The notes under the pieces were generated by a model, which was not told the DNA's origin, searched no databases, and worked only from the letters and a program-made list of their open reading frames with translations. Shown here piece by piece: positions 854 to 11,167 of a stretch of DNA of 64,000 nucleotides. Each line of letters opens with the position of its first letter. Within the stretch, counting starts at the first letter, position 1. A program made the translations under genes and the position numbers. This stretch comes from a virus (taxonomy: Duplodnaviria > Heunggongvirae > Uroviricota > Caudoviricetes), in IMG/VR virus record IMGVR_UViG_3300028454_000679, one strand, 5' to 3'.

Positions 854-1432
854 TTACTTTGTAAATACGTCGCTAGTCCCAAGGTTATAAAGTTTTGGCA
901 TATAGTCAGACAACTCAACGACCTGCTGTAGAACCTCTGACGACAATTCAACACTACCACCGCACTTTAAATCAGCTAAATCCTTGTAGAGGATAAAATT
1001 ATTCTTAATATTACATAAATCGCCGATATAGTTTATACGGTCGGAGTGTGTTATAGCATTCTTGATACTCAGAACTGGAGCATTTAAACTCTTATGCAAC
1101 CTTAAAAGCGACGTTATATGTTTCCCGCCTTTTACAAACTCATTAATCTTATTCTCAAGCTCTGTTACCTCAGTATGCTCTGGCTGAGCAAGAACCTTCT
1201 CACAGATTGGAGTAATAACAGTATACTTAAGCTTCTCCGGGAAGTAGCCATAAAACTGCACTAAGTCCAAGTTAATAGGCTCTTCCTCAAAAAGATTAAA
1301 AATAACATCGTCTGACTTGATAACACTAAAATCAATACTATCCGGAGTTACAAAGGACGCTTCCACTCCGAAAGCATCCTTAACCTCCTCTACATACTCA
1401 CTTAAATCTTTGTCTGAAATAATAAATAACAT
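854..1432 (-). CDS. hypothetical protein
   Basis: 192-aa ORF, co-directional and tightly packed, with no recognisable motif. Confidence 0.35.
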   Translation of the reverse strand: MLFIISDKDLSEYVEEVKDAFGVEASFVTPDSIDFSVIKSDDVIFNLFEEEPINLDLVQFYGYFPEKLKYTVITPICEKVLAQPEHTEVTELENKINEFVKGGKHITSLLRLHKSLNAPVLSIKNAITHSDRINYIGDLCNIKNNFILYKDLADLKCGGSVELSSEVLQQVVELSDYMPKLYNLGTSDVFTK

Positions 1433-1434
1433 AG

Positions 1435-2844
1435 TTACCTCTTAAACTTCACGATCTTGCCAAGGGATTCGAGCATATCGCATTCATCCGTATATTTTAA
1501 GACAAACATCGTTTTCTTTCTTATTTTATTTGGTACAGTGAAGTTAGTTCTGAAACACCCATCCGTAAACACAACATAGCATACATCATGCTTGCAATTC
1601 TCTTGAATATACTCTGTGACCCGTTGGTAGTTAGTTCCACCTGACTCAAACTGTATTGTCTTAGCTAAGCGTGGAATATCTGCCTCTGTCAAATCTAGGA
1701 ACTCTTTGTATACCTTAGTATTCCAAAGATACAGAGATACAGTGCACTTGTAAGACACACAGAGGTCTAAAGCTGTTGATAGAAAAAACTCCACATCCTC
1801 CTGAGTCATTGAGCCAGAAGTGTCCAAAAAGAGTCCTACATTATTGAATCTATCAACAGGACATGGACCTGGCATAACCAACTCATACGGTATATAATGC
1901 CTGTCTGGTGTTTGGAAGGAACTATCCTCTAGGGCAGTATGTTGAGAAAGGAACTTACGTAAATACTTATCCCAACGAATCCTCTCAACCTTAAACAGTT
2001 TTGACAACTGATACATGGCACCACCTTGACACAACTCGGAATAGTCCTTAATAAGTGACTCTGTGAAATTGTCCATAGCGAAGGAATTCATACTATCTTC
2101 CCCACACTCGTTTACTGGTGTGAATAAATCATTGAAGCCAAAATCGTCTGGGTTATCATCATCACTATGTTGTCCCTGAGTACTCCCTGCACTACCTTGA
2201 TTGTCTCCATTCTGCTGACTGTTGCCTTGGTTGTCTTCATCCTGCTGACTATTGCCTTGAGAATCACTCTGCTGACCGCCATCACCACCACTAAAAACTG
2301 CACTCTGTGAGAGACCACGTGGCACAGGCTGCTGGTCTGCTTCTGCTAAAAGTTTTGCGTAAAGTTGCTCTAAAGTGACTTCCTCAAGATCCTCTAAATT
2401 ACCATCAGCATCTTTCAGCAAAAGAGCATGGCTAGGGACTGTACAAAGCTTTTCAGCAGCTACCTCAGTTTTTATATCATTCTGAAGATGCCAGTTAACC
2501 ATATAATCAGCAGCTATATTAAATAGTTCATGATTATAGGATGGTATGTCTTTAGCACGTACAAGATGCCTAAACATAATATGGTACACTTCATGCAGAA
2601 CAACAAATGCGAACTCCTCATCAGTGAGTGTGTTCGCAAAGTCAGCATTTATATAAAGGTGCTTAGTGTCAACTGCCATAGTGGGAATTGTAGAATAAAG
2701 CTTATCCCCTTGCTGTAAAACTGTAGGGTCTCCTAACTTCAGTGTAGCGACACCAAACCACTTCGTTTCTAAAAATAGTCTGGTTCGAATATCATGAAAC
2801 CGCTTTTCTATTGATCTAGCGTTTATTTTAGTCACCTCCATCAC
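1435..2844 (-). CDS. VWA-domain protein with N-terminal HExxH metallopeptidase-like domain (DUF2201-type partner of MoxR ATPases)
   Basis: HEVYHIMFRH (HExxH) in the N-terminal half and DTSGSM (DxSxS MIDAS motif) in the C-terminal half. It lies in the same gene array as a MoxR-like AAA+ ATPase. Confidence 0.65.
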   Translation of the reverse strand: MMEVTKINARSIEKRFHDIRTRLFLETKWFGVATLKLGDPTVLQQGDKLYSTIPTMAVDTKHLYINADFANTLTDEEFAFVVLHEVYHIMFRHLVRAKDIPSYNHELFNIAADYMVNWHLQNDIKTEVAAEKLCTVPSHALLLKDADGNLEDLEEVTLEQLYAKLLAEADQQPVPRGLSQSAVFSGGDGGQQSDSQGNSQQDEDNQGNSQQNGDNQGSAGSTQGQHSDDDNPDDFGFNDLFTPVNECGEDSMNSFAMDNFTESLIKDYSELCQGGAMYQLSKLFKVERIRWDKYLRKFLSQHTALEDSSFQTPDRHYIPYELVMPGPCPVDRFNNVGLFLDTSGSMTQEDVEFFLSTALDLCVSYKCTVSLYLWNTKVYKEFLDLTEADIPRLAKTIQFESGGTNYQRVTEYIQENCKHDVCYVVFTDGCFRTNFTVPNKIRKKTMFVLKYTDECDMLESLGKIVKFKR

Positions 2845-2862
2845 TTTACATATTTAGCACAG

Positions 2863-3612
2863 TTACGACTTTTGAAAGCGTTTTTTGCACCATGCTTGTA
2901 GCTCCCCAGAAGCAAGTGAATCTTCAGTGTATGGGTGGAATAAGTTACTACCAAGAAAAATCTTAGTTGTTCTTGCAGGAGGTAGCATAGGAAAAGTACT
3001 GAGGTTAACACTACTGATTTTAGTATTACAAAACATCCACCTTGCTGATTCTATATTACTAAAATCCGCATAATCCCAAGTAATACTTTGCACCCCACTA
3101 TTCTGGAACATACCCTCTACATACTTAATATAGCATCCTCTGAAATCTGTAAAATTAATATCCTCTGCTTTGGCATCCACAAAAAGCCCATTTAGCGAAG
3201 TAATACTGGGCTTGTCAAAAGAGCTAGACAAAATAATATGCTGTGAGAATTCAGATAATCTTTTAATTGACAGAAAATCAGTTGGCCTTATATAAGTCTT
3301 TGAAAAATCAAGTGTTATAAAGTTTAAACACAGAGGTAGCAACCACCAATGACTACCTACAATTGTAGAAGTTCTAGTATTAACATACAATGGAATTGTG
3401 TTGCACACCTCTACTGTACCAGTTTTACCCCAGCTGGCTGGCATTAGACCTATTAAACCATTCTTATAGTCAACAATCTGAATACCCTGCTCTAAAAGCT
3501 TTTCTTGTTTCTCCAGGATTGTAGGTAAGTGGAGAGCGTAATCCTTACCCTCGCACTGCCAGTAAGTTAACCCCTTTAACTCCAATGCTTTTACTTGTTC
3601 TTCTGTTAGCAT
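2863..3612 (-). CDS. DUF285/BspA-like repeat protein, paralog 1 of 4
   Basis: N-terminus MLTEEQVKALELKGLTYWQCEGKDYAL is shared with 3615..4679. Repeats of the FTDFRGCYIKYVEGMF / ITWDYADFS / MFCNTKISSVNLSTF type (MF..C..L..W-D) are present. Confidence 0.45.
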   Translation of the reverse strand: MLTEEQVKALELKGLTYWQCEGKDYALHLPTILEKQEKLLEQGIQIVDYKNGLIGLMPASWGKTGTVEVCNTIPLYVNTRTSTIVGSHWWLLPLCLNFITLDFSKTYIRPTDFLSIKRLSEFSQHIILSSSFDKPSITSLNGLFVDAKAEDINFTDFRGCYIKYVEGMFQNSGVQSITWDYADFSNIESARWMFCNTKISSVNLSTFPMLPPARTTKIFLGSNLFHPYTEDSLASGELQAWCKKRFQKS

Positions 3613-3614
3613 AG

Positions 3615-4679
3615 TTATTCCTTGTCATAAACCTGCATAAGAAGATACACAAACTCATCAGTATACTTCTCTAGGCTTACATCGTCTGGTACAACAACCC
3701 TAGGCTTTATCCAAAAAAGGAAGCGTGCTATAACATCATAGTCAATTTTGAGAAACACTTTAAAAAGGTCATCAACATCAATACCGTCCTTGCTATAAAC
3801 AATTACAGTGTCCTCACTCATCTTAAAGTAAAGGTCGTCCTTTACAACAACACGCAAAAAGTTATCCCAAAAGTCCTCTTTGATAACGTATAGTGAAATG
3901 GAACTGCTTCTCTGCACTGCGGTGTACAAACACCCATAGGTCTTTCTACACATTTTCTGTAATTCCCCAGAAGCAAGTAAGCTTTCGGAGTATGGGTAAG
4001 TTAAGTTACTACTAAGAAAAATACCACTCATTGCTTCAAAAGACATCATAGGGAAAGTACCGAGATTAACATTCTTAATATCAGCTCCCCAAAACATACC
4101 AATTGCTGATTCCACACCACTAAAATCTACATAATCCCACGTAATATTCTGTACCTTACTACGCGCAAACATATGGTCTACATTCTTAACGTAGAGTCCT
4201 CTGAAATCTGTAAAATTGACATCCTCTGCTTCAGAACCTCTGAACAGTCCTGTCAGTGAAGTAATGCCTGGTTTATCTAAAGAGTTGGACAAAATAACAT
4301 GTTGTGAATGTTTGGCTAACCTGTTGATTGTTTTGATATCAGTTTGCCTTATATAGGTTTTTGAAAGATCAAGTGTTATAAAATTTGAGCATAGAGAATT
4401 GCCCCAGCTGTAATTATCTACGATTGTAGAAGTTTGCGTGTCAATATCCAATGGGATTGTATTACACACATCTACTGCAACAGTTCCAGGTTTGCACCAA
4501 CTGGCTGGTACTAAACGGATTACATTACCAGAAGCATTAAGAACCTGAATACCCTGTTCTAAAAGCTTTTCTTTCTTGTCTAAAATAGTCTTTAGGTCCA
4601 GTGCATAATCCTTACCTTCACACTGCCAGTAAGTTAACCCCTTTAATTCCAATGCCCTTACTTGCTCCTCTGTAAACAT
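3615..4679 (-). CDS. DUF285/BspA-like repeat protein, paralog 2 of 4
   Basis: N-terminal ~60 aa nearly identical to paralog 1 (MFTEEQVRALELKGLTYWQCEGKDYAL). Same FTDFRG / ITWDYVDFS repeat pattern, with a longer C-terminal extension. Confidence 0.45.
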   Translation of the reverse strand: MFTEEQVRALELKGLTYWQCEGKDYALDLKTILDKKEKLLEQGIQVLNASGNVIRLVPASWCKPGTVAVDVCNTIPLDIDTQTSTIVDNYSWGNSLCSNFITLDLSKTYIRQTDIKTINRLAKHSQHVILSNSLDKPGITSLTGLFRGSEAEDVNFTDFRGLYVKNVDHMFARSKVQNITWDYVDFSGVESAIGMFWGADIKNVNLGTFPMMSFEAMSGIFLSSNLTYPYSESLLASGELQKMCRKTYGCLYTAVQRSSSISLYVIKEDFWDNFLRVVVKDDLYFKMSEDTVIVYSKDGIDVDDLFKVFLKIDYDVIARFLFWIKPRVVVPDDVSLEKYTDEFVYLLMQVYDKE

Positions 4680-4681
4680 AG

Positions 4682-5461
4682 TTATGCCTCCTGTTTCTTA
4701 CACCACTGTTGTAATGTTCCTGTTGTAACAGCCTCTTCAGTAAATTGATAGGATAGTGAACTATTGTGAAAGATACCCTGACACTGCTCTGCACTCAGAA
4801 GAGGTAGAGAACTTAAATTCACATAGTTACACCCTCTAAAAGACTTGAAGGCATTTTTAGCACTACTGACACTCTGCAGTGAGGCATGCTTCCAAATAAA
4901 GTCACCTGCGTAAACACAATTGAAAGCATCATCTAAAGTCTGCAAGTACTTGCCAGTGAAGTCAGTAAAGTCTAGGGACTCAAAGTATCCACCCTCAAAG
5001 ATAGCCAACTCTGTAATATCAGGTTTATCAAAAGACTTCCCTAGCACAACACCACTCCGAGTATTCTGTGCGAAGAACCGAACGGTCTGCAAATCCTCAG
5101 GATGCACAAAGAATTCCCTAGCGTCGAAAGGTGGCAGAGGTGATGTGAAGCACAGGCAATCATCTGAAAGGTCTAGAGTGTAACTACACTGCTTAAGAGT
5201 CCTTGAATCAATAAACATTGGTAAAGTGGTGACATTGTGTGACTTGTAAGTATAACTAAAAGTTCCCTCATTACCAACAATCATAACCCCTTTTGGTGCT
5301 AACCCTATAACACCATTGCAGTCAGTTAATACTTCCAGACCCTGTAAAGCACTCAAGCATTGCGGTAAGTCGTTAGGATTGATTACAACATCCTTACTCT
5401 CAAATTGCCAGTAAATTCTGCCTGTGGCTTCAAGGGCTTTTACTTGTTCGTAACTAAGCAT
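4682..5461 (-). CDS. DUF285/BspA-like repeat protein, paralog 3 of 4 (divergent)
   Basis: N-terminus MLSYEQVKALEATGRIYWQFESKD. Motifs DFTDFTGKYLQTLDDAF and a C-terminal LQQWCKK tail are shared with paralogs 1 and 2. Confidence 0.4.
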   Translation of the reverse strand: MLSYEQVKALEATGRIYWQFESKDVVINPNDLPQCLSALQGLEVLTDCNGVIGLAPKGVMIVGNEGTFSYTYKSHNVTTLPMFIDSRTLKQCSYTLDLSDDCLCFTSPLPPFDAREFFVHPEDLQTVRFFAQNTRSGVVLGKSFDKPDITELAIFEGGYFESLDFTDFTGKYLQTLDDAFNCVYAGDFIWKHASLQSVSSAKNAFKSFRGCNYVNLSSLPLLSAEQCQGIFHNSSLSYQFTEEAVTTGTLQQWCKKQEA

Positions 5462-5481
5462 CTTGTACCTCCACTGTAATG

Positions 5482-6765
5482 CTAAATAATAGTAAGACCA
5501 CTGAAAATATCATCCACAGATTCAACTGCTTGCTGAGCCACTTGAGGCTGCTGAGCTGGCTGTGGTGCAGTGTTCGACGGTTGTACCAATTGCTGAGTAG
5601 ACTGTTGTGATATACCTGCAAAAACACCTGACTGCTGAACACTCTCTGGCTGTGGTGCTAATACATCAGGCGTAGTGTTGCTGTAAACATCACTAAGTGT
5701 GCTAGCCAAGTCACTAACACTGGAAGCATCAGCCAAAAGTGCTCTTTGAGTCACCTCAGGATCCACAGAAGAAATCGCCTGCACAAGAGATGCTTCAACC
5801 TCAGCTGACAACTGGTGTGCCCACTTTGAGATATTGTTATGTGCTAATACTCTAACATCCATATCAAATTCATCCGACTTACAAACATTAGAGTAAATAG
5901 AGATAATACTCTCAACAACAAACTGTCTAGTAGCTGCGTCAGTAGGTACTGCTGGATTCTCACCTGCTATAACTTCCTCAGCAGTTTGCTCGTTTGCGAA
6001 TAACTTTGCATACTTGTAAAACTCATAACCCAGAGTCTCCCCAACACACGCACAGATTTTATTCATAACGATAGTAGAGTTAATATCCCCTGCAACATTC
6101 AAAGTATCAGAAACACGTTTCCAAGTTCTCGGTGATGCGAATACAATCTCGTCCTCATTCTCCGACTGAGTATGCAGACTTGTAGGATGCGATTCTATAT
6201 AGGACGTCACAAGTGGGTTTACACCTTTACCATCCTTACCGCGGTAAACACGGGCATAATCCTCTACCCAGACTTTAGCATCCATCTGCACATTGTAAAT
6301 CTCAAAACGGTTTGCTAATGGTGCAGCTAACTCTTCATAGACACCACCATCGTCCTCCCCATTTCCTAAAGCAATAATAACAGTGTCATCAGGTAGGAAG
6401 TGTCTTCCAAGGCGTCTGTCCAACACAAGCTGGTAAGCAGCAACCTGTACACGTTTTGTAGCTGAAGTAATTTCATCCAAAAGTAGGATAGTCTTTGGAC
6501 CGCCCTCCTTTGGAAACCAATCCGGAATAAGCCAAGTGGTTTCTGTACGAGTTTCATTGGGGTAAATAAGTCCGCACAACTCAACTTCAGACATCTGTGC
6601 CAAACGTAAATCCTCCACGTGATACCCAAGTTCTCTACCAATCTGTTGAATAATCTCAGACTTTCCGATACCAGGTGCACCTAAACCCAAGATAGGTTGC
6701 TTTAATCCACTCTTGATTGTAAATTCAATAATCGACTTAAATTCCCTTGTGTTAATTGATCGCAT
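5482..6765 (-). CDS. MoxR-like AAA+ ATPase
   Basis: Walker A LGLGAPGIGKSE and Walker B ILLLDEITS. Core of ~300 aa followed by a Q/P-rich C-terminal tail. Adjacent to the VWA partner gene. Confidence 0.75.
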   Translation of the reverse strand: MRSINTREFKSIIEFTIKSGLKQPILGLGAPGIGKSEIIQQIGRELGYHVEDLRLAQMSEVELCGLIYPNETRTETTWLIPDWFPKEGGPKTILLLDEITSATKRVQVAAYQLVLDRRLGRHFLPDDTVIIALGNGEDDGGVYEELAAPLANRFEIYNVQMDAKVWVEDYARVYRGKDGKGVNPLVTSYIESHPTSLHTQSENEDEIVFASPRTWKRVSDTLNVAGDINSTIVMNKICACVGETLGYEFYKYAKLFANEQTAEEVIAGENPAVPTDAATRQFVVESIISIYSNVCKSDEFDMDVRVLAHNNISKWAHQLSAEVEASLVQAISSVDPEVTQRALLADASSVSDLASTLSDVYSNTTPDVLAPQPESVQQSGVFAGISQQSTQQLVQPSNTAPQPAQQPQVAQQAVESVDDIFSGLTII

Positions 6766-7795
6766 TGAAACCTCCTAAACTTAACAACTCTTTTTCTTCC
6801 TCTGTTATTTCATCTTTAAATTTGAAAGCAAACCCACCTGCCGTCTCTTGAAATGGATACTGCTTTAGACCCTGAAAATACACATTTGGTATCTCCTGTG
6901 TAAAAATACCTAAGCTGTCTGAAATATATAAACAACTTCGTTCAAATTCCTTCTCATAATACTTATTGAAAGCATCCATTGACGTAAAACGTGTGAACAG
7001 ATTATCTTTGTGCTTGAAACAATTGCTAAACTTAACAGTCTCTGGGAATGTACTGATATCAGCACCTAATTGACGATGGAAGGAATCCTCAACTACCCTC
7101 AGATTCTTCGGATTAAAATTTCTCCAGACTACACTAGTTCTGTAGGAGCTATTCATAAATCGATAAATCCTCTCCAAACACTCACCAGTGAAATCAGTAA
7201 AATCGATACCATCATAATGACGATTGTTAGCAAATGTTAGCTCCTTAGCGTTATTAAAAGATGCTCCTAATTCAAGATAGCACACGCTATCTGACAAGGT
7301 GCGATAAAGCTCAGGTAGAGCAAATCCCTCATACCACTCTATCTTATTCACATTCAAGTCGATAATAGTTCTATGATGGTTGAGAGTGAGTTGCGGTACA
7401 AATCCAGTAAGGTTAAAATCTGTATCAAGTGCAACAGGAAGCATTGTGATAATCTTGGACCCATTAGATCTTGCCTTCTCCCATTTTTTGTAGGCATTTT
7501 TATCACCATCTAACCAGTCAACAATAACCTGGTCATTGAAACTCTTTGGAGAAAACACACTAAAACTACAGGTGCCAGTTGGAATCATCTCAAAAGGATT
7601 AAAGAAAACAAACTTATCTCTCGTTTTATAAACTGCAAGACTGTAATCCTTAGCGAACTGTACAATGTTCTCTGGCTTAAGATGATGCTTTGACACAAAG
7701 ATACCACCTTTTATTGGTAGATAGATAAAACCACGGAGTCTCATTGCCTGTTTAATTGATTCATCAACCATTAGTAACCTCCACCTCTGAACCAT
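6752..7795 (-). CDS. DUF285/BspA-like repeat protein, paralog 4 of 4 (divergent, no shared N-terminus)
   Basis: DFTDFTGECLERIYRFMNSS and WRNFNPKNL-type repeats resembling paralogs 1-3. Located upstream of the MoxR gene. Confidence 0.35.
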   Translation of the reverse strand: MVQRWRLLMVDESIKQAMRLRGFIYLPIKGGIFVSKHHLKPENIVQFAKDYSLAVYKTRDKFVFFNPFEMIPTGTCSFSVFSPKSFNDQVIVDWLDGDKNAYKKWEKARSNGSKIITMLPVALDTDFNLTGFVPQLTLNHHRTIIDLNVNKIEWYEGFALPELYRTLSDSVCYLELGASFNNAKELTFANNRHYDGIDFTDFTGECLERIYRFMNSSYRTSVVWRNFNPKNLRVVEDSFHRQLGADISTFPETVKFSNCFKHKDNLFTRFTSMDAFNKYYEKEFERSCLYISDSLGIFTQEIPNVYFQGLKQYPFQETAGGFAFKFKDEITEEEKELLSLGGFNAIN

Positions 7796-8747
7796 CCAAT
7801 GCCCGCACTACAGTAAAGACATTAGCACTTTTGATTTCCTTGACATACCCAATAGAGCCATCTTCAAATATATACTCATCACCTGCTGACATGGTAGCCA
7901 GGTTAGAGGCAAATGCCTCTGCAATACCCTTATCAAATAGTGTTCCAGAATTCTCTCTAATATAACTTAAAGCTTGTACACATGTGTCAGCCTTTTTGTA
8001 AATTCTGTCTGAGACAAGTGCGTCATAGCAATCCACAATTCTTAAGATTCTCCCATAAATAGGAATCTTTGTACCTACAAGATTGTATGGGTACCCTGAC
8101 CCATCAAAGTTCTCATGATGAGTAAGGACAGCGTACTTAATCTCCTTAGACAAGTTAGCATTGTCCTTAATCATATTGAATCCAACAACAGGGTGCGATT
8201 GTATGCACTCTCGCTCCTCGTCCGTAAATCTGCCTTTCTTCCACATAACATTAGAAGGAATCATCTGCTTACCCAAATCATGTAAAAGACCGGCAATAGC
8301 AAGATCGTAAACCCTAGGTGTTTCCAGACCCAGTCGTATACCAAGTGCCGCTGCGTAGACTGCTACATTAACAGAGTGATTGAATGTGTATGAATCAAAA
8401 ACACACAAGTTCATAAGATTGCTCGTAATAAAACCTCTATCGTTGATAAGTAGCTCAGATGCTATTCTGTTTGCGTAAACAACACAGGCATCAAAGTTCA
8501 TAGACCTAAGAGCATGAATTGTCTCTGCTCTCGTCTTTACAGATATAGTCCCTTCCGCAACGCTTGTTACATCATCCAAGATACACACTTGACTGAAACC
8601 ACGTTTTTGTAGTAACTCTATGTCAGCATTGGTCAACTCGTCGTCTGCGTTTAAAGCAATACCGCCATTGAGATTATAGATAGGAAGAGCTAATCTGTCC
8701 TTTTCACACAATTCCTCAGTTTGGACAAAATGCATAATAATCTCCAT
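7764..8747 (-). CDS. HD-GYP domain phosphodiesterase (cyclic (di)nucleotide phosphodiesterase)
   Basis: LLHDLGK (HD motif) and HHENFDGSGYP (HD-GYP signature) in the C-terminal half. The N-terminal ~150 aa are of unknown function. Confidence 0.75.
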   Translation of the reverse strand: MEIIMHFVQTEELCEKDRLALPIYNLNGGIALNADDELTNADIELLQKRGFSQVCILDDVTSVAEGTISVKTRAETIHALRSMNFDACVVYANRIASELLINDRGFITSNLMNLCVFDSYTFNHSVNVAVYAAALGIRLGLETPRVYDLAIAGLLHDLGKQMIPSNVMWKKGRFTDEERECIQSHPVVGFNMIKDNANLSKEIKYAVLTHHENFDGSGYPYNLVGTKIPIYGRILRIVDCYDALVSDRIYKKADTCVQALSYIRENSGTLFDKGIAEAFASNLATMSAGDEYIFEDGSIGYVKEIKSANVFTVVRALDGSEVEVTNG

Positions 8748-8790: not shown

Positions 8791-10044
8791 CTACTTTATA
8801 ACTACTGGAGTTCCGTAAATAATAAAACTTTCTAACCAATCTGCAAACTTCTCTGGCAGATTTATACCTCCATGAGAGCCTGCGGTTTTGTAAATGTTTC
8901 CACCGAAGGAGCCTCGCCAGTCAGCATCATGTAAGCCGACGCCGGAGTTCGTTAGACGATACCAATGATCTACCCAAGTACAATATCCGTCGCCTCTTAG
9001 GTACTTACCTTGCGGACTTATCTCTGTTACAGTGAATACACCTGATGGAGTATCATAAACACCAAGTGTTCCAGTGACACAGTCAGTCTCCTTGACCACT
9101 TTTCCATCTTTATATACATAAACATGCTGTTTCTTTTTGTTCACATAGATAAAGCTGTTTCCTACATCATCTGGAGCTTGTAGTCCAGTAATAGGTTTTT
9201 GGCTGTAGATCGGAGCAAACTGACCCAAGAAACCTTTATCCTTGTGCTGCTGTAGGAAAGCTTCTGCAGTTTTCTCCTCATCAACAACAAAGCCATATGT
9301 TCCTCCACTAACCTCAATATCCTTATCATTCAGATGAACAACATGTTTACTCCCTGCAGTGTTAAACTTTTCAGACAGCATACTTGCATAGGTTTTAGAA
9401 AGTGAGACAGTGTCTAAGGACACAGTACCTTTCTTGCTAATGGAAACAAACTTCTTAATGGTCTCAAAAGTAAGCGGACATTCCTTTTTAACTTCCCAAG
9501 ACTTGTAACTCTTTAGCTTCTTTAGCTGTTTATCTACTTTGCTATTATTATTTTTAGGCTCCTTTAGCCATTGTTCCACATGATAGATGCCTGCACCCTG
9601 CAATGGGATGCTGTCTACATCACACAAATAAGGCTTATTCTTAGAGGACACTGTTAAATCCTGATTTAGGGTCTTAACCGCAAAAAGAAAAGTTTGCTCA
9701 AAATGGCTCTGTAAAACGCCTTTGCTTCCTGGCTTCACAGACGCTTTAACAAACTTTTCGATTTTATCAGTAGCGGAAAAAAGATTGATATGTTCTATAC
9801 TCTCCTTATCCACACTAAATTCAAACAACTCCTCGTTTGGTATAGTACATTCCATACCAAATGCTTTAAATGTTGACTCTCCTGTGCTCAACTCATCTAC
9901 ATAATCATTCACAAGAGTAGCAGTTTCTCTTTGTACCCTTTTATTAAATTGATGGCACCCTAAAGCTGCCCCTAAAACAATAGCTAAAACAATAAGTGCA
10001 ATTCTTCGTTTCATAAATTCTCCTTGATTCCTAAGTATATTCAT
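8791..10044 (-). CDS. secreted L,D-transpeptidase (YkuD)-like protein, probably catalytically altered
   Basis: Signal peptide (MKRRIALIVLAIVLGAALGC). The C-terminal VGLHDADW....AGSHGGINLP....YGTPVVI matches the YkuD fold, but the SHGC catalytic Cys is replaced by Gly. Confidence 0.5.
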   Translation of the reverse strand: MNILRNQGEFMKRRIALIVLAIVLGAALGCHQFNKRVQRETATLVNDYVDELSTGESTFKAFGMECTIPNEELFEFSVDKESIEHINLFSATDKIEKFVKASVKPGSKGVLQSHFEQTFLFAVKTLNQDLTVSSKNKPYLCDVDSIPLQGAGIYHVEQWLKEPKNNNSKVDKQLKKLKSYKSWEVKKECPLTFETIKKFVSISKKGTVSLDTVSLSKTYASMLSEKFNTAGSKHVVHLNDKDIEVSGGTYGFVVDEEKTAEAFLQQHKDKGFLGQFAPIYSQKPITGLQAPDDVGNSFIYVNKKKQHVYVYKDGKVVKETDCVTGTLGVYDTPSGVFTVTEISPQGKYLRGDGYCTWVDHWYRLTNSGVGLHDADWRGSFGGNIYKTAGSHGGINLPEKFADWLESFIIYGTPVVIK

Positions 10045-10633
10045 ACTTGTAAACTACCTTAAAAGTACACTCACGCACCTAAGTGTGCACCAGTATATAA
10101 GTAAACACATAAGTCATTTCATGACTGTAAGTAGAATCATCTATTTCCTTATATGCAATCACTGACACATACTCATTCTCCTAAAGCCACGTAACCTCCT
10201 CTGTAGGCACAGCCTTACACTTACATACATCCTCTTACTCATACCCTAGAGCCACTGACAGGGAATACTCAAACACCAGTGCTAACACATAAGTCAGCTT
10301 ATAAGTCGCCACACATGCAAACACTAGTGTCTAAACATGTTAATACACTATGGTCAAAGTCAATGTATGCTTCAATAGTTGTGTATACTCATCAAACGAA
10401 TTGCACGCATGAGCCTACTTAGGTACAGTAGCATATTTCTAAATTACCTTAACAGACGGAGTCAGTCTATGCTTATATGTAGGCTTAGATACAGACTTGA
10501 CAGTTTGTGTCAGCTTATATATAGGTTTGGAAGTCAATGGCAGAGTAAACTCAAGCAACAGTGGTAGAGTAAACTTCTATACCAGAGTAAGTACAGACTT
10601 ATCATTCGACGGTGAAGTAACCACGGGCTGATT

Positions 10634-10729
10634 GTTGTCTAACGTGTTGATATGGTAAAGTGCCTGCTTTGCTCTCATGTACCCTAAGGTACTGCAGGTA
10701 AAATTACTCATATCAACACGTTAAACAAC
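10634..10729. repeat. inverted repeat carrying CTAACGTGTT motif (centromere/operator-like)
   Basis: gttgtctaacgtgttgatatgg and catatcaacacgttaaacaac form an inverted pair about 55 bp apart. Confidence 0.5.
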
Positions 10730-10732
10730 AAT

Positions 10733-11110
10733 AGGGGAGGTGGGGTAGTAAATGCTACCCCTATAATGGAAAATGCAAGCACAAACTAATGACACCTAAC
10801 GTGTTAGCACACCTAAAATCTTTTCACATATCCATTGTACCCAAAGGTACTAAAAGAGTAAAAGGTTGTGCTAACACGTTAGATGTCACAAAATACAAAT
10901 CCCTTGTAAGTTGTCACGTTAGACAACAAAGAGGAGGTCGGGGTAGCAAACACTACCCCTAAAAATGAAAAACACATCAAACTAATGGCACCTAACGTGT
11001 TAGCACACCTAAAATCTTTTTCACTCAAAAAGAATACCCAAAGGTACTAAAAGAATGAAGGTTATGCTAACACGTTAAGTGTCACAAAAACATAAGTCAA
11101 CTTATAAGTC
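10733..11110. repeat. two tandem ~190-bp repeats upstream of parA, each with a hairpin (GGGGTAG-N6-CTACCCC), a TATAAT-like box and two oppositely oriented CTAACACGTTAG sites; candidate parS/centromere
   Basis: Direct comparison of 10733-10925 with 10930-11110 gives about 85% identity. At least 7 copies of the 10-12 bp CTAACGTGTT motif in both orientations occur across 10636-11075. Confidence 0.55.
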
Positions 11111-11167
11111 AACTCATACATTGACACACCCAGAAAAAATTGCTATACTCTTAGTGGAGGTGTAATA

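What the first reader, a model, noticed from the sequence alone, without database searches (positions are those of the whole stretch)
1435..7795. MoxR AAA+ ATPase / VWA-metallopeptidase pair interleaved with an array of four DUF285(BspA)-like paralogs sharing a private N-terminal module
Seen in sequence: a VWA protein with HExxH and MIDAS motifs (1435..2844) and a MoxR-like AAA+ ATPase (5482..6765) bracket three tandem paralogs (2863..5461), with a fourth directly upstream of the ATPase (6752..7795). Paralogs 1-3 start with a near-identical ~50-aa segment ((L/F)(T/S)(E/Y)EQV(K/R)ALE..G..YWQ.E.KD) and then diverge into repeats of the FTDF(R/T)G...MF / ITWDY.DFS / NLS.FP type. Established knowledge: MoxR-VWA pairs act as chaperone-like maturation or insertion systems for specific client complexes. 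DUF285/BspA-like repeats are surface-exposed or adhesin-like. Inference: the paralog array may be a set of diversified clients or receptor-binding modules serviced by the ATPase/VWA pair, and tandem duplication suggests diversifying selection.
Basis: partly seen in the sequence, partly recalled or inferred. Interest (0 to 1): 0.6.

Follow-up and report, generated by a model that had tools for sequence, protein, structure and literature searches.

The report
MoxR–VWA operon with cytoplasmic LRR paralogs
A large plasmid-like element from a gut or rumen Firmicute carries an ATPase (MoxR) and a protease-VWA partner packed in one operon with four related small leucine-rich-repeat proteins, a linkage that recurs in several related elements and, with a different LRR protein, in 76 of 80 related bacterial genome loci, so the LRR proteins are probably a working third part of this machine.

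Summary
All six ORFs exist on the minus strand. The VWA protein has HEVYH and DTSGS motifs, and the ATPase has Walker A and B motifs. P1, P2 and P3 are full-length paralogs and P4 is a distant fourth copy.

Each paralog alone misses the Pfam DUF285 threshold. A profile of the four retrieves hundreds of true DUF285 proteins, and the AF2 model best matches BspA-type LRR crystal structures.

The "private" N-terminal module is not private. It occurs in arrays of 3 to 7 small DUF285 proteins around MoxR/VWA pairs in at least three other elements (hhalign E 6.9e-6). It matches no known fold.

In 76 of 80 rumen and gut Clostridia genome loci, a fast-evolving cytoplasmic LRR_5 protein sits beside the same pair, often with a radical SAM enzyme. 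In IMG/VR viral contigs the pair lacks LRR genes.

The paralogs have no signal peptides. The window shows plasmid genes (Rep3, ParA) and no virion genes. dN/dS is below 1. The adhesin, receptor-binding and diversifying-selection readings are therefore not supported.

Best reading: an LRR-based third component (adaptor or client) of a MoxR–VWA-peptidase system. That is a new variant of a known kind.

The parts
6752..7771 (-). It has the N-module, a long insert, a DUF285-like LRR with FTDFTG at 7184-7201, and a C-terminal extension. Its 3' end overlaps the ATPase start by 14 nt.
5482..6765 (-). MoxR-class AAA+ ATPase (427 aa). Walker A lies at 6658-6681 and Walker B at 6472-6486. It has a Q/P/S-rich low-complexity C-terminal tail.
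4682..5461 (-). P3: paralog (259 aa), 32% identical to P1 over the full length.
3615..4679 (-). P2: paralog (354 aa), 63% identical to P1. It has a ~105-aa C-terminal extension (3618-3932) that is also present in the homolog P0005.
2863..3612 (-). P1: paralog (249 aa). The N-terminal alpha/beta domain covers residues 1-92 (3337-3612) and the DUF285/BspA-type LRR solenoid roughly residues 97-229 (2926-3324), followed by C-terminal helices.
1435..2844 (-). Zincin metallopeptidase (DUF2201_N, HEVYH at 2581-2595) fused to a VWA domain (DUF2201, MIDAS DTSGS at 1810-1824). An acidic, Q/G/S-rich linker covers residues 186-234.
854..1432 (-). orf192: unannotated 192-aa gene immediately downstream of the VWA gene. 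It is conserved in the same position in the related element L009 (51% identity). Its membership of the system is uncertain.
7764..8747 (-). HD-GYP-type (HD_5) phosphohydrolase gene immediately upstream. It overlaps the P4 start, and the same order occurs in L011 (74% identity). This is operon context, not shown to belong to the system.

Best explanation
The locus is a tightly packed, probably co-transcribed operon on a ~234-kb Rep3/ParA plasmid-like element of a gut or rumen Firmicute. It combines three kinds of protein.

(1) A MoxR-class AAA+ ATPase.
(2) A partner protein with an N-terminal HExxH zincin peptidase and a C-terminal VWA/MIDAS domain.
(3) Four cytoplasmic paralogs. Each has a conserved ~90-aa N-terminal alpha/beta domain of no known fold, followed by a short (4-5 repeat) DUF285/BspA-type LRR solenoid.

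I propose that the paralogs are the third component of a ternary MoxR-VWA system. The conserved N-domain would dock each paralog onto the VWA/MIDAS-ATPase machine. The faster-evolving LRR face would bind a target protein. ATP-driven remodelling, together with the attached zincin, would then act on the LRR protein or on its bound target. Four paralogs would give four specificities.

Shown: domain identities, paralogy, absence of secretion signals, tight operon packing, and recurrent genomic linkage of BspA-type LRR proteins with this pair in independent lineages.

Inferred: physical docking, the direction (adaptor versus client or substrate), the targets and the biological role. Because the element is mobile, a role in conflict between genetic elements is plausible.
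For: Domain calls:
- Pfam and PHROGs for the pair.
- A profile of the four paralogs retrieves 627 proteins at E<=1e-3. These match profile positions ~135-255, and 9 of 9 large hits tested are Pfam DUF285 at 1e-31 to 1e-115.

Operon packing: spacers between genes are 2-20 nt, P4 overlaps the ATPase start by 14 nt, and no convincing internal terminator was found.

Linkage evidence:
(i) Relatives of this element keep the same order. L009 has a P2-like gene, a split P1-like gene, VWA, orf192 and YdjM. L011 has HD-GYP, a P4-like gene and the ATPase. L010 and L012 hold tandem paralogs.
(ii) Three more distant elements with ATPases 52-58% identical carry 3 to 7 small DUF285 proteins upstream of, between and downstream of the ATPase and VWA genes. 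These are L013, L176 and L178. L177 has a cut DUF285 ORF directly upstream of its ATPase.
(iii) The proteins of L013, L176 and L178 share an N-terminal module homologous to the window's. hhalign of A6 against A13 gives probability 84.5% and E 6.9e-6, collinear over positions 1-59 and 1-65.
(iv) In 80 GTDB genome loci of rumen and gut Clostridia (ATPase 43-56% identical), 76 carry a ~315-390-aa LRR_5 protein next to the pair. The gene orders are L-R-V-A 41, L-V-A 19, R-L-V-A 11 and A-L-V 4. In 68 of 69 complete loci this protein has no signal peptide or TM segment.
(v) Evolutionary rates are graded as in known ternary systems: mean pairwise identity is 62.5% for the ATPase, 46.9% for the radical SAM enzyme, 42.5% for the VWA protein and 22.3% for the LRR protein. 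In the window lineage the paralogs are 41% identical to their orthologs, against 51-74% for flanking genes.

Constraint on the N-module: in P1/P2 it is under strong constraint (dN/dS 0.04), while the rest is at 0.2-0.5.

Background rate: DUF285-like ORFs are rare in the flanks of the other loci, with 1 hit in 160 loci of about 16 kb each.

Precedents from the literature: MoxR-vWA systems with a fast-evolving third component encoded upstream of MoxR (PMC7159879), and MIDAS domains that grip a small domain of their ligand proteins (PMC6624252).
Against: - No interaction data of any kind exist.
- The pair works without any LRR partner in most viral contigs. DUF285-like genes occur in 0 of 80 viral loci and the LRR_5 family in 1 of 80.
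- Two of the seven closest A>V loci (ATPase upstream of VWA) lack DUF285 genes. L014 has none. L015 has only an LRR_5 protein 5 kb away.
- The window paralogs are not detectably homologous to the clostridial LRR_5 family (hmmsearch negative; hhalign E 0.23). The two associations may therefore be independent, or partly coincidental.
- BspA-type LRR genes are abundant in these bacteria and their mobile elements. Giant LRR_5 proteins lie nearby in L013 and L014.
- The space between ATPase and VWA is a variable region in phages, filled with unrelated ORFs.
Confidence: 0.55

Rival explanations
1. Hitch-hiking cargo. The paralog array is an unrelated, duplicating gene family that landed in the variable region around the ATPase and VWA genes. 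It would have no mechanistic tie to the pair, like the assorted small ORFs and homing endonucleases found there in phages.
For: In IMG/VR loci holding both genes, 41 of 68 have more than 200 nt between ATPase and VWA and 29 of 68 have more than 1 kb. The ORFs there are heterogeneous: Nmad5, DUF3150, AAA_28, pentapeptide repeats, and mostly unknown. Phage G, PA5oct and PJN101 show the same pattern. The pair exists without LRR genes in nearly all viral loci.
Against: Proteins with the same architecture (homologous N-module plus DUF285) recur around the pair in at least four separate element lineages, with different copy numbers and positions. P4 overlaps the ATPase start codon. An analogous LRR_5 protein is kept next to the pair through gene-order permutations in 76 of 80 species-level genome loci whose outer flanks differ. 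DUF285-like ORFs are otherwise almost absent from 160 flanking regions.
Confidence: 0.2
2. The paralogs are surface or virion proteins (adhesins or receptor-binding modules) under diversifying selection, and the MoxR/VWA chaperone folds or installs them.
For: Canonical DUF285/BspA proteins are surface proteins. Many top profile hits are large multi-repeat proteins, some with N-terminal methylation motifs. A MoxR-(peptidase-vWA) pair in jumbo phages has been proposed to aid virion assembly (PMC7824862). The PA5oct ATPase carries an 'ESI-MS/MS' note in its record.
Against: P1-P4 have no signal peptide, lipobox or TM segment. The maximum KD19 is <=1.33, against 2.22 for the exported YkuD protein next door. 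No capsid, portal, terminase or tail family occurs in 51 other ORFs of the window. The replication genes are Rep3 and ParA, with best matches on Butyrivibrio and Roseburia megaplasmids. No homolog exists in 50,697 phage records. dN/dS is below 1 everywhere and there is no microdiversity across four assemblies.
Confidence: 0.08
3. The paralogs are dedicated substrates rather than adaptors. The zincin domain would cleave off the conserved N-domain as a pro-domain, and the ATPase/VWA would unfold or present them, releasing active LRR fragments.
For: The linkage evidence is the same as for the main model. A conserved N-terminal module followed by a low-confidence linker (pLDDT 66 at residues 91-100) would suit a processing site. 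The peptidase is fused to the VWA domain in every locus examined (HExxH and DxSxS in 69 of 69).
Against: No cleavage motif was identified. Nothing separates this reading from the adaptor model with the present data.
Confidence: 0.17

Closest known systems
MoxR AAA+ / (metallopeptidase-vWA) pair of jumbo and other phages (Iyer et al. 2021, PMC7824862; phrog_1297 + phrog_1314; Pfam DUF2201_N + DUF2201)
   Same: The two proteins are the same over their full lengths: phrog_1297 at 2.2e-70 and phrog_1314 at 2.5e-58. The order is ATPase before VWA, often with other genes in between.
   Different: The phage versions are only <=38% identical in the ATPase and almost never carry LRR partners. The present element looks like a plasmid rather than a virus, so the proposed virion-assembly role does not transfer.
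MoxR-vWA ternary conflict systems (VMAP, iSTAND and beta-propeller types; Kaur et al. 2020, PMC7159879)
   Same: A MoxR ATPase and a vWA protein carrying an effector domain (here a peptidase) are joined by a fast-evolving third component, which is encoded upstream of MoxR. Evolutionary rates are graded: MoxR slowest, third component fastest.
   Different: The third component here is a small LRR protein, not VMAP or iSTAND. The peptidase is N-terminal to the vWA domain rather than a C-terminal effector. The third component is multiplied to 3-7 copies. The hosts are Clostridia and their plasmids, not multicellular actinobacteria or cyanobacteria.
Clostridial chromosomal module: LRR_5 protein + radical SAM enzyme + zincin-VWA + MoxR
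   Same: This module has the closest ATPase relatives (43-56% identity). The VWA has the same architecture with HExxH and DxSxS. The accompanying BspA-type LRR protein is cytoplasmic.
   Different: The LRR protein is a single-copy ~330-aa LRR_5 family with the repeats at its N-terminus, and it is not detectably homologous to P1-P4. The gene order is mostly VWA before ATPase. A radical SAM gene is present in 55 of 80 loci, and the window has no equivalent.
BspA / DUF285 (PARCEL-repeat) surface proteins of Mollicutes, Firmicutes and Bacteroidota
   Same: The repeat type is the same, and the fold is closest to BspA-type LRR crystal structures.
   Different: P1-P4 are short, with one ~120-aa repeat block. 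They are cytoplasmic, fall below the Pfam threshold individually, and carry a distinct N-terminal domain tied to MoxR/VWA neighbourhoods.
Rea1/Midasin: an AAA+ ring plus a MIDAS domain that pulls on the UBL domains of Rsa4 and Ytm1 (PMC6624252)
   Same: This is a conceptual model: an AAA_5-class ATPase with a MIDAS domain that grips a small N-terminal domain of its ligand proteins. Midasin is the only PDB sequence hit of the ATPase (E 3.9e-4).

Membership tests
MoxR-class AAA+ ATPase | AAA+ core with Walker A and Walker B motifs; Pfam AAA_5/AAA_3 match above threshold | tested here: met
   GAPGIGKS at residues 29-36 and LLLDE at 94-98. AAA_5 scores 28.8 bits against a cut-off of 22. phrog_1297 'ATPase' at 2.2e-70. 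NCBI names close relatives 'MoxR family ATPase'.
MoxR-class AAA+ ATPase | Genomic pairing with a VWA/MIDAS partner protein | tested here: met
   The VWA gene is in the same operon. A VWA gene lies near the ATPase in 79 of 80 genome loci and 68 of 80 viral loci.
MoxR-class AAA+ ATPase | Sequence relationship to experimentally characterised MoxR proteins (RavA, CbbQ, NorQ); hexameric ring | tested here: inconclusive
   phmmer against the PDB finds only Midasin (E 3.9e-4). A profile of 16 relatives finds nothing at E<=1e-3. The oligomeric state cannot be tested with these tools.
DUF2201 zincin-VWA protein (phrog_1314) | N-terminal putative metallopeptidase domain with HExxH | tested here: met
   DUF2201_N scores 69.6 bits against a cut-off of 23.2. 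HEVYH lies at residues 84-88.
DUF2201 zincin-VWA protein (phrog_1314) | C-terminal VWA-like domain with a MIDAS DxSxS motif | tested here: met
   DTSGS lies at residues 341-345. Pfam DUF2201 scores 25.6 bits, just under the 26.4 cut-off. The full-length phrog_1314 match is 2.5e-58.
DUF285 / BspA-type LRR | Pfam PF03382 match above the gathering score for each protein | tested here: not met
   P1 scores 17.0 bits and P2 19.8 bits against a cut-off of 25. P3 and P4 give no hit.
DUF285 / BspA-type LRR | Homology to bona fide DUF285 repeats at profile level | tested here: met
   The profile of the four paralogs gives 627 hits at E<=1e-3 and 91 at <=1e-10, matching profile positions ~135-255. 9 of 9 large hits tested are PF03382 at 1e-31 to 1e-115.
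DUF285 / BspA-type LRR | LRR solenoid fold of the BspA type | tested here: met
DUF285 / BspA-type LRR | Cell-surface location (signal peptide, lipobox or anchor), as in described family members | tested here: not met
   There is no hydrophobic N-terminal or TM segment in P1-P4. This rests on a hydropathy scan, not on a dedicated predictor.
MoxR-vWA ternary system (VMAP type, Kaur et al. 2020) | Third component containing the VMAP-C domain | tested here: inconclusive
   The Pfam scan of P1-P4 at E<=1 returned no VMAP family. I did not verify that the library holds such models. The architecture (N-domain plus LRR) differs from the VMAP description.
MoxR-vWA ternary system (VMAP type, Kaur et al. 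2020) | Strict gene order: third component, then MoxR, then vWA; third component evolving fastest | tested here: inconclusive
   The order P4, ATPase, (P3, P2, P1), VWA fits in part. The order varies among related loci. The rate gradient is met in the genome loci.
Anti-phage defence systems in PADLOC | Match to a PADLOC model | tested here: not met
   VWA, P1-P4, ATPase and orf192 give no hits at E<=0.01.
Phage virion or receptor-binding module | Located in a virus genome with structural and packaging genes; homologs in phage records | tested here: not met
   No structural PHROG families occur in 51 ORFs. tblastn of P2 against 50,697 phage records finds nothing. Rep3 and ParA are present. Only 64 of ~234 kb were visible.

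The most novel reading that the evidence does not exclude
Small cytoplasmic BspA-type LRR proteins are the sensor or adaptor subunits of a previously unrecognised LRR-based class of MoxR-vWA-peptidase ternary systems. These proteins comprise the N-module-DUF285 family on megaplasmid-like elements and the LRR_5 family in Clostridia chromosomes. The logic of LRR sensor plus AAA+ motor plus protease would be reminiscent of eukaryotic LRR immune receptors. The multi-paralog arrays would provide several recognition specificities for conflict between plasmids, phages and hosts.
Probability: 0.3. Interest if true: 0.75.

Novelty: new variant of a known kind. Interest (0 to 1): 0.6.

Why it matters
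MoxR-VWA pairs are very widespread, yet for most of them no client is known. In this clade a candidate partner is written into the genome. It is a fast-evolving cytoplasmic LRR protein kept next to the pair in 76 of 80 species-level genome loci, and multiplied into arrays with a common N-terminal domain on mobile elements.

This turns an open question, what these ATPases act on, into a testable one. Several carriers of the chromosomal module are cultured rumen isolates: Lachnospiraceae AB2028 and XBB2008, Eubacterium ruminantium FB3002 and Butyrivibrio VCB2006.

It also shows that BspA/DUF285 repeats, usually read as surface adhesins, have an intracellular branch. Finally, it flags the 'HNH endonuclease' label of phrog_1314 and of many RefSeq phage records as a probable misannotation.

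Tried and rejected

2. Direct homology between P1-P4 and the clostridial LRR_5 family. hmmsearch was negative in both directions and hhalign gave E 0.23. Not shown.

3. N-module homology tested against the L013 trio alone was inconclusive (E 0.033). It became significant only with the broader alignment A13 (E 6.9e-6).

4. Positive selection. Nei-Gojobori dN/dS by region is below 1 everywhere. dS is near saturation, so the test is weak.

5. Phage identity of the element. There is no DNA match to phage records and no structural PHROGs.

6. Defence-system identity. PADLOC was negative.

7. The word-indexed protein searches found only the element's own proteins.

8. Scans for the paralog family or its N-module found nothing: IMG/VR with P0005 and with A13, and JGI metagenome contigs with A13 and A2. 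A3 was too divergent to make search patterns.

10. The small ~95-aa gene that follows the VWA gene in L013, L176, L177 and L178 has no counterpart in the window.

11. NCBIfam has no model for the LRR, VWA or ATPase components of the clostridial module. Its radical SAM gene matches only generic models below threshold.

Full report
**Observation.**

The 469-aa product of 1435-2844 matches Pfam DUF2201_N (4.4e-19) and the DUF2201 VWA-like domain (1.4e-5, just under threshold). It aligns end to end with phrog_1314 (2.5e-58). It carries HEVYH at residues 84-88 and the MIDAS-type DTSGS at 341-345.

The 427-aa product of 5482-6765 matches AAA_5 above threshold and phrog_1297 'ATPase' (2.2e-70). Its Walker A is GAPGIGKS and its Walker B is LLLDE.

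P1 (2863-3612), P2 (3615-4679) and P3 (4682-5461) are paralogs over their full length. P1/P2 are 63% identical (8e-112) and P1/P3 32% (3e-39). P4 (6752-7795) is a remote fourth copy. It matches P3 at 2e-7. It scores 27.3 bits against an HMM built without its lineage, against at most 8.6 bits for 500 shuffles. P4 most likely starts at 7771.

No other copy exists in the 64-kb window. Genes are separated by 2-20 nt or overlap, and P4 overlaps the ATPase start by 14 nt. No convincing internal terminator was found.

**Are the paralogs DUF285/BspA-like?**
Individually they fail the Pfam cut-off: 17 and 19.8 bits against 25 for P1 and P2, and no hit for P3 and P4.

A profile of the four, run against 1.84 billion representative proteins, found 627 hits at E<=1e-3. 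After a handful of full-length relatives, the hits are large multi-repeat proteins that match profile positions ~135-255. All nine that I tested are Pfam DUF285 at 1e-31 to 1e-115.

The C-terminal half is therefore a short DUF285/BspA-type LRR solenoid. Unlike described family members, P1-P4 have no signal peptide or membrane segment.

**The N-terminal module.**
In P1/P2 the first 45 residues are 87% identical with dN/dS 0.04. The rest is 55-66% identical with dN/dS 0.2-0.5. This means strong constraint on the head and relaxed purifying selection elsewhere. There is no signal of positive selection, although dS is close to saturation.

**What the element is.**
The window is 100% identical to a 234,325-bp ENA contig and to three shorter assemblies. 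Next to the operon lie ParA and a Rep3 initiator. The best plasmid matches of Rep3 are 186-243-kb plasmids of Butyrivibrio and Roseburia.

Fifty-one further ORFs show no capsid, portal, terminase or tail family. Instead they include thymidylate synthase, TatC, signal peptidase, sortase, an MCP, PilZ, flotillin, PARG, a trigger-factor-like protein and RadC. There are three tRNA genes.

The visible quarter of the element looks like a Lachnospiraceae-type megaplasmid, not a virus. There is no DNA or paralog match in 50,697 phage records.

**Related loci.**
Close relatives of the element keep the arrangement:
- L009: P2-like gene, split P1-like gene, VWA (56% identity), orf192, YdjM.
- L011: HD-GYP, split P4-like gene, ATPase.
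- L010 and L012: tandem paralogs.

Between elements the first ~39 residues are the best conserved part (54-72%, against 33-41% for the rest).

More distant elements were reached through the ATPase, and they are decisive:
- L013 (ATPase 57% identical): ATPase, DUF285, VWA, small ORF, DUF285, DUF285.
- L176 (58%): DUF285, DUF285, ATPase, VWA, small ORF, DUF285.
- L178 (52%): at least seven DUF285 genes, lying upstream of, between and downstream of the pair.
- L177 (55%): a truncated DUF285 ORF directly upstream of the ATPase.

The DUF285 proteins of L013, L176 and L178 share an N-terminal module of their own (MITEQERIIRKSQGYDIGFE.NGKKYWINS...). It is homologous to the window's module. hhalign of the two N-module alignments gives probability 84.5% and E 6.9e-6, collinear over the whole module. 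An earlier test against the L013 trio alone had been inconclusive.

The 'private' module therefore defines a family of small cytoplasmic DUF285 proteins. So far that family has been seen only around MoxR/VWA pairs. Two other close loci lack it: L014 has none, and L015 has only an LRR_5 protein 5 kb away.

**A wider pattern.**
Scanning one genome per GTDB species with an ATPase alignment returned 80 loci. All are from rumen or gut Clostridia, including cultured isolates, with ATPases 43-56% identical to the window's.

In 72 of 79 loci the VWA gene sits immediately upstream of the ATPase. In 76 of 80 a ~315-390-aa protein of one family lies beside the pair. Pfam LRR_5 (BspA-type LRR) was confirmed on two members, and a third carries it in precomputed annotation. 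A ~320-aa radical SAM enzyme accompanies it in 55 of 80 loci.

With L for the LRR_5 gene, R for radical SAM, V for VWA and A for the ATPase, the gene orders are L-R-V-A (41), L-V-A (19), R-L-V-A (11) and A-L-V (4). The genes beyond the module differ between the loci examined.

In 69 complete loci, all VWA proteins keep HExxH and DxSxS, and 68 LRR proteins lack any export signal. Mean pairwise identity falls from 62.5% (ATPase) through 46.9% (radical SAM) and 42.5% (VWA) to 22.3% (LRR). The same gradient was reported for MoxR-vWA ternary conflict systems (PMC7159879).

This LRR_5 family is not detectably homologous to P1-P4, and the window has no ortholog of it or of the radical SAM enzyme.

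By contrast, 80 IMG/VR viral loci have ATPases <=38% identical. There the ATPase precedes the VWA gene, and the gap is more than 200 nt in 41 of 68 loci. The gap is filled with heterogeneous small ORFs. DUF285-like genes occur in 0 of 80 viral loci and the LRR_5 family in 1 of 80.

**Interpretation.**
The MoxR plus peptidase-vWA pair is already described in jumbo phages, where a virion-assembly role was proposed (PMC7824862).

Two things are new here. First, this branch of the pair is recurrently linked to cytoplasmic BspA-type LRR proteins. Second, the mobile-element version has 3-7 paralogs that share a conserved N-domain of unknown fold.

I conclude, with confidence about 0.55, that the paralogs are a functional third component. 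The conserved N-domain is the likely docking element. The variable LRR is the likely recognition surface. The ATPase and the VWA-fused zincin act on the LRR protein or on its ligand. Whether the paralogs are adaptors or substrates cannot be decided from sequence.

The main rival is that they are unrelated cargo in a variable region (about 0.2). The recurrence of the same architecture in independent arrangements argues against it, but no interaction data exclude it.

**Limits.**
- Only 64 of ~234 kb of the element were visible.
- The DUF285 survey of the 160 loci used an HMM I built from session hits, not the Pfam model.
- The LRR_5 assignment for the 76 loci rests on jackhmmer family membership, with Pfam confirmation for two members and a precomputed annotation for a third.
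- Signal-peptide absence rests on hydropathy only.
- The scans of JGI metagenome contigs and IMG/VR for the paralog family or its N-module found nothing. The family's full distribution is therefore unknown.

Noticed in passing
window 10600-11120: The intergenic region between the minus-strand YkuD operon and parA (11168) holds ~197-bp direct repeats (10717-10893 and 10915-11089). Each contains palindromic boxes such as TGCTAACACGTTAG..TGTCA. This is probably a partition site, iterons or divergent promoters of the plasmid.
   Followed up: no
phrog_1314; phage G gp576 (L005 10470-), PA5oct gp144 (L006 8958-10142), Atu_ph07, XC38: PHROGs and many RefSeq phage records label this family 'HNH endonuclease'. 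It is in fact a DUF2201_N zincin plus a DUF2201 VWA domain with HExxH and MIDAS motifs. This is probably a propagated misannotation.
   Followed up: partly
L016-L095 (e.g. L026 4799-9122; L094 4121-9083; L017 8004-11649): A conserved clostridial module: cytoplasmic LRR_5 protein, radical SAM enzyme (55 of 80 loci), zincin-VWA and MoxR ATPase. The LRR_5 protein is present in 76 of 80 species-level genome loci, including cultured rumen isolates. NCBIfam has no model for three of the four parts, and I found no paper describing the module.
   Followed up: partly
L118 10412-12204 (IMG/VR 3300036768_000624): Three tandem ORFs of ~196 aa lie between ATPase and VWA, after a 187-aa ORF at 9829-10389. 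They look like distant paralogs, sharing an ..N.EEEFF..PY.. motif. BLAST does not link them at 1e-5. This may be an independent paralog array in the same slot. L172-L175 also have paralogous ~155-aa ORFs there.
   Followed up: no
L013 3067-3270; L176 10672-10968; L177 3228-3518; L178 10516-10800: A conserved small ORF (67-98 aa) directly follows the VWA gene in the four DUF285-array loci. It has no counterpart in the window, where orf192 (854-1432) occupies that position.
   Followed up: partly
L009 1105-1946; L011 331-1357: In related assemblies the P1-like and P4-like genes are split into two ORFs (39+231 aa and 72+256 aa). This may be a frameshift or pseudogene, or an assembly error. It may indicate turnover of copies.
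   Followed up: no
window 1435-2844 (residues 186-234) and 5482-6765 (residues ~340-427); L014 11634-13355: Both partners carry long low-complexity segments: a D/Q/G/S/N-rich linker between the zincin and VWA domains, and a Q/P/S-rich C-terminal tail on the ATPase. L014 has an even longer D/G/Q-rich linker in its 573-aa VWA protein and a similar ATPase tail.
   Followed up: no
window 7764-8747, and elsewhere in 14-63 kb; L015 5951-6571: The element carries c-di-GMP-related genes: an HD-GYP-type HD_5 gene directly upstream of P4, a PilZ protein and a Cache/HAMP MCP. The syntenic element L015 has a GGDEF gene near its ATPase.
   Followed up: no
window 14000-63000: The plasmid-like element encodes host-like envelope and secretion functions: TatC, signal peptidase S26, sortase, flotillin, a trigger-factor-like protein and a YkuD L,D-transpeptidase, with a class A PBP just outside the window. 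It also encodes ThyA, guanylate kinase, PARG, RadC and three tRNAs (Ser, Met, Gln).
   Followed up: partly
IMG/VR loci L096-L175, between ATPase and VWA: The ORFs in the viral gaps include Nmad5 (4), DUF3150 (2), AAA_28 (2) and one pentapeptide-repeat protein. Most have no Pfam family.
   Followed up: no
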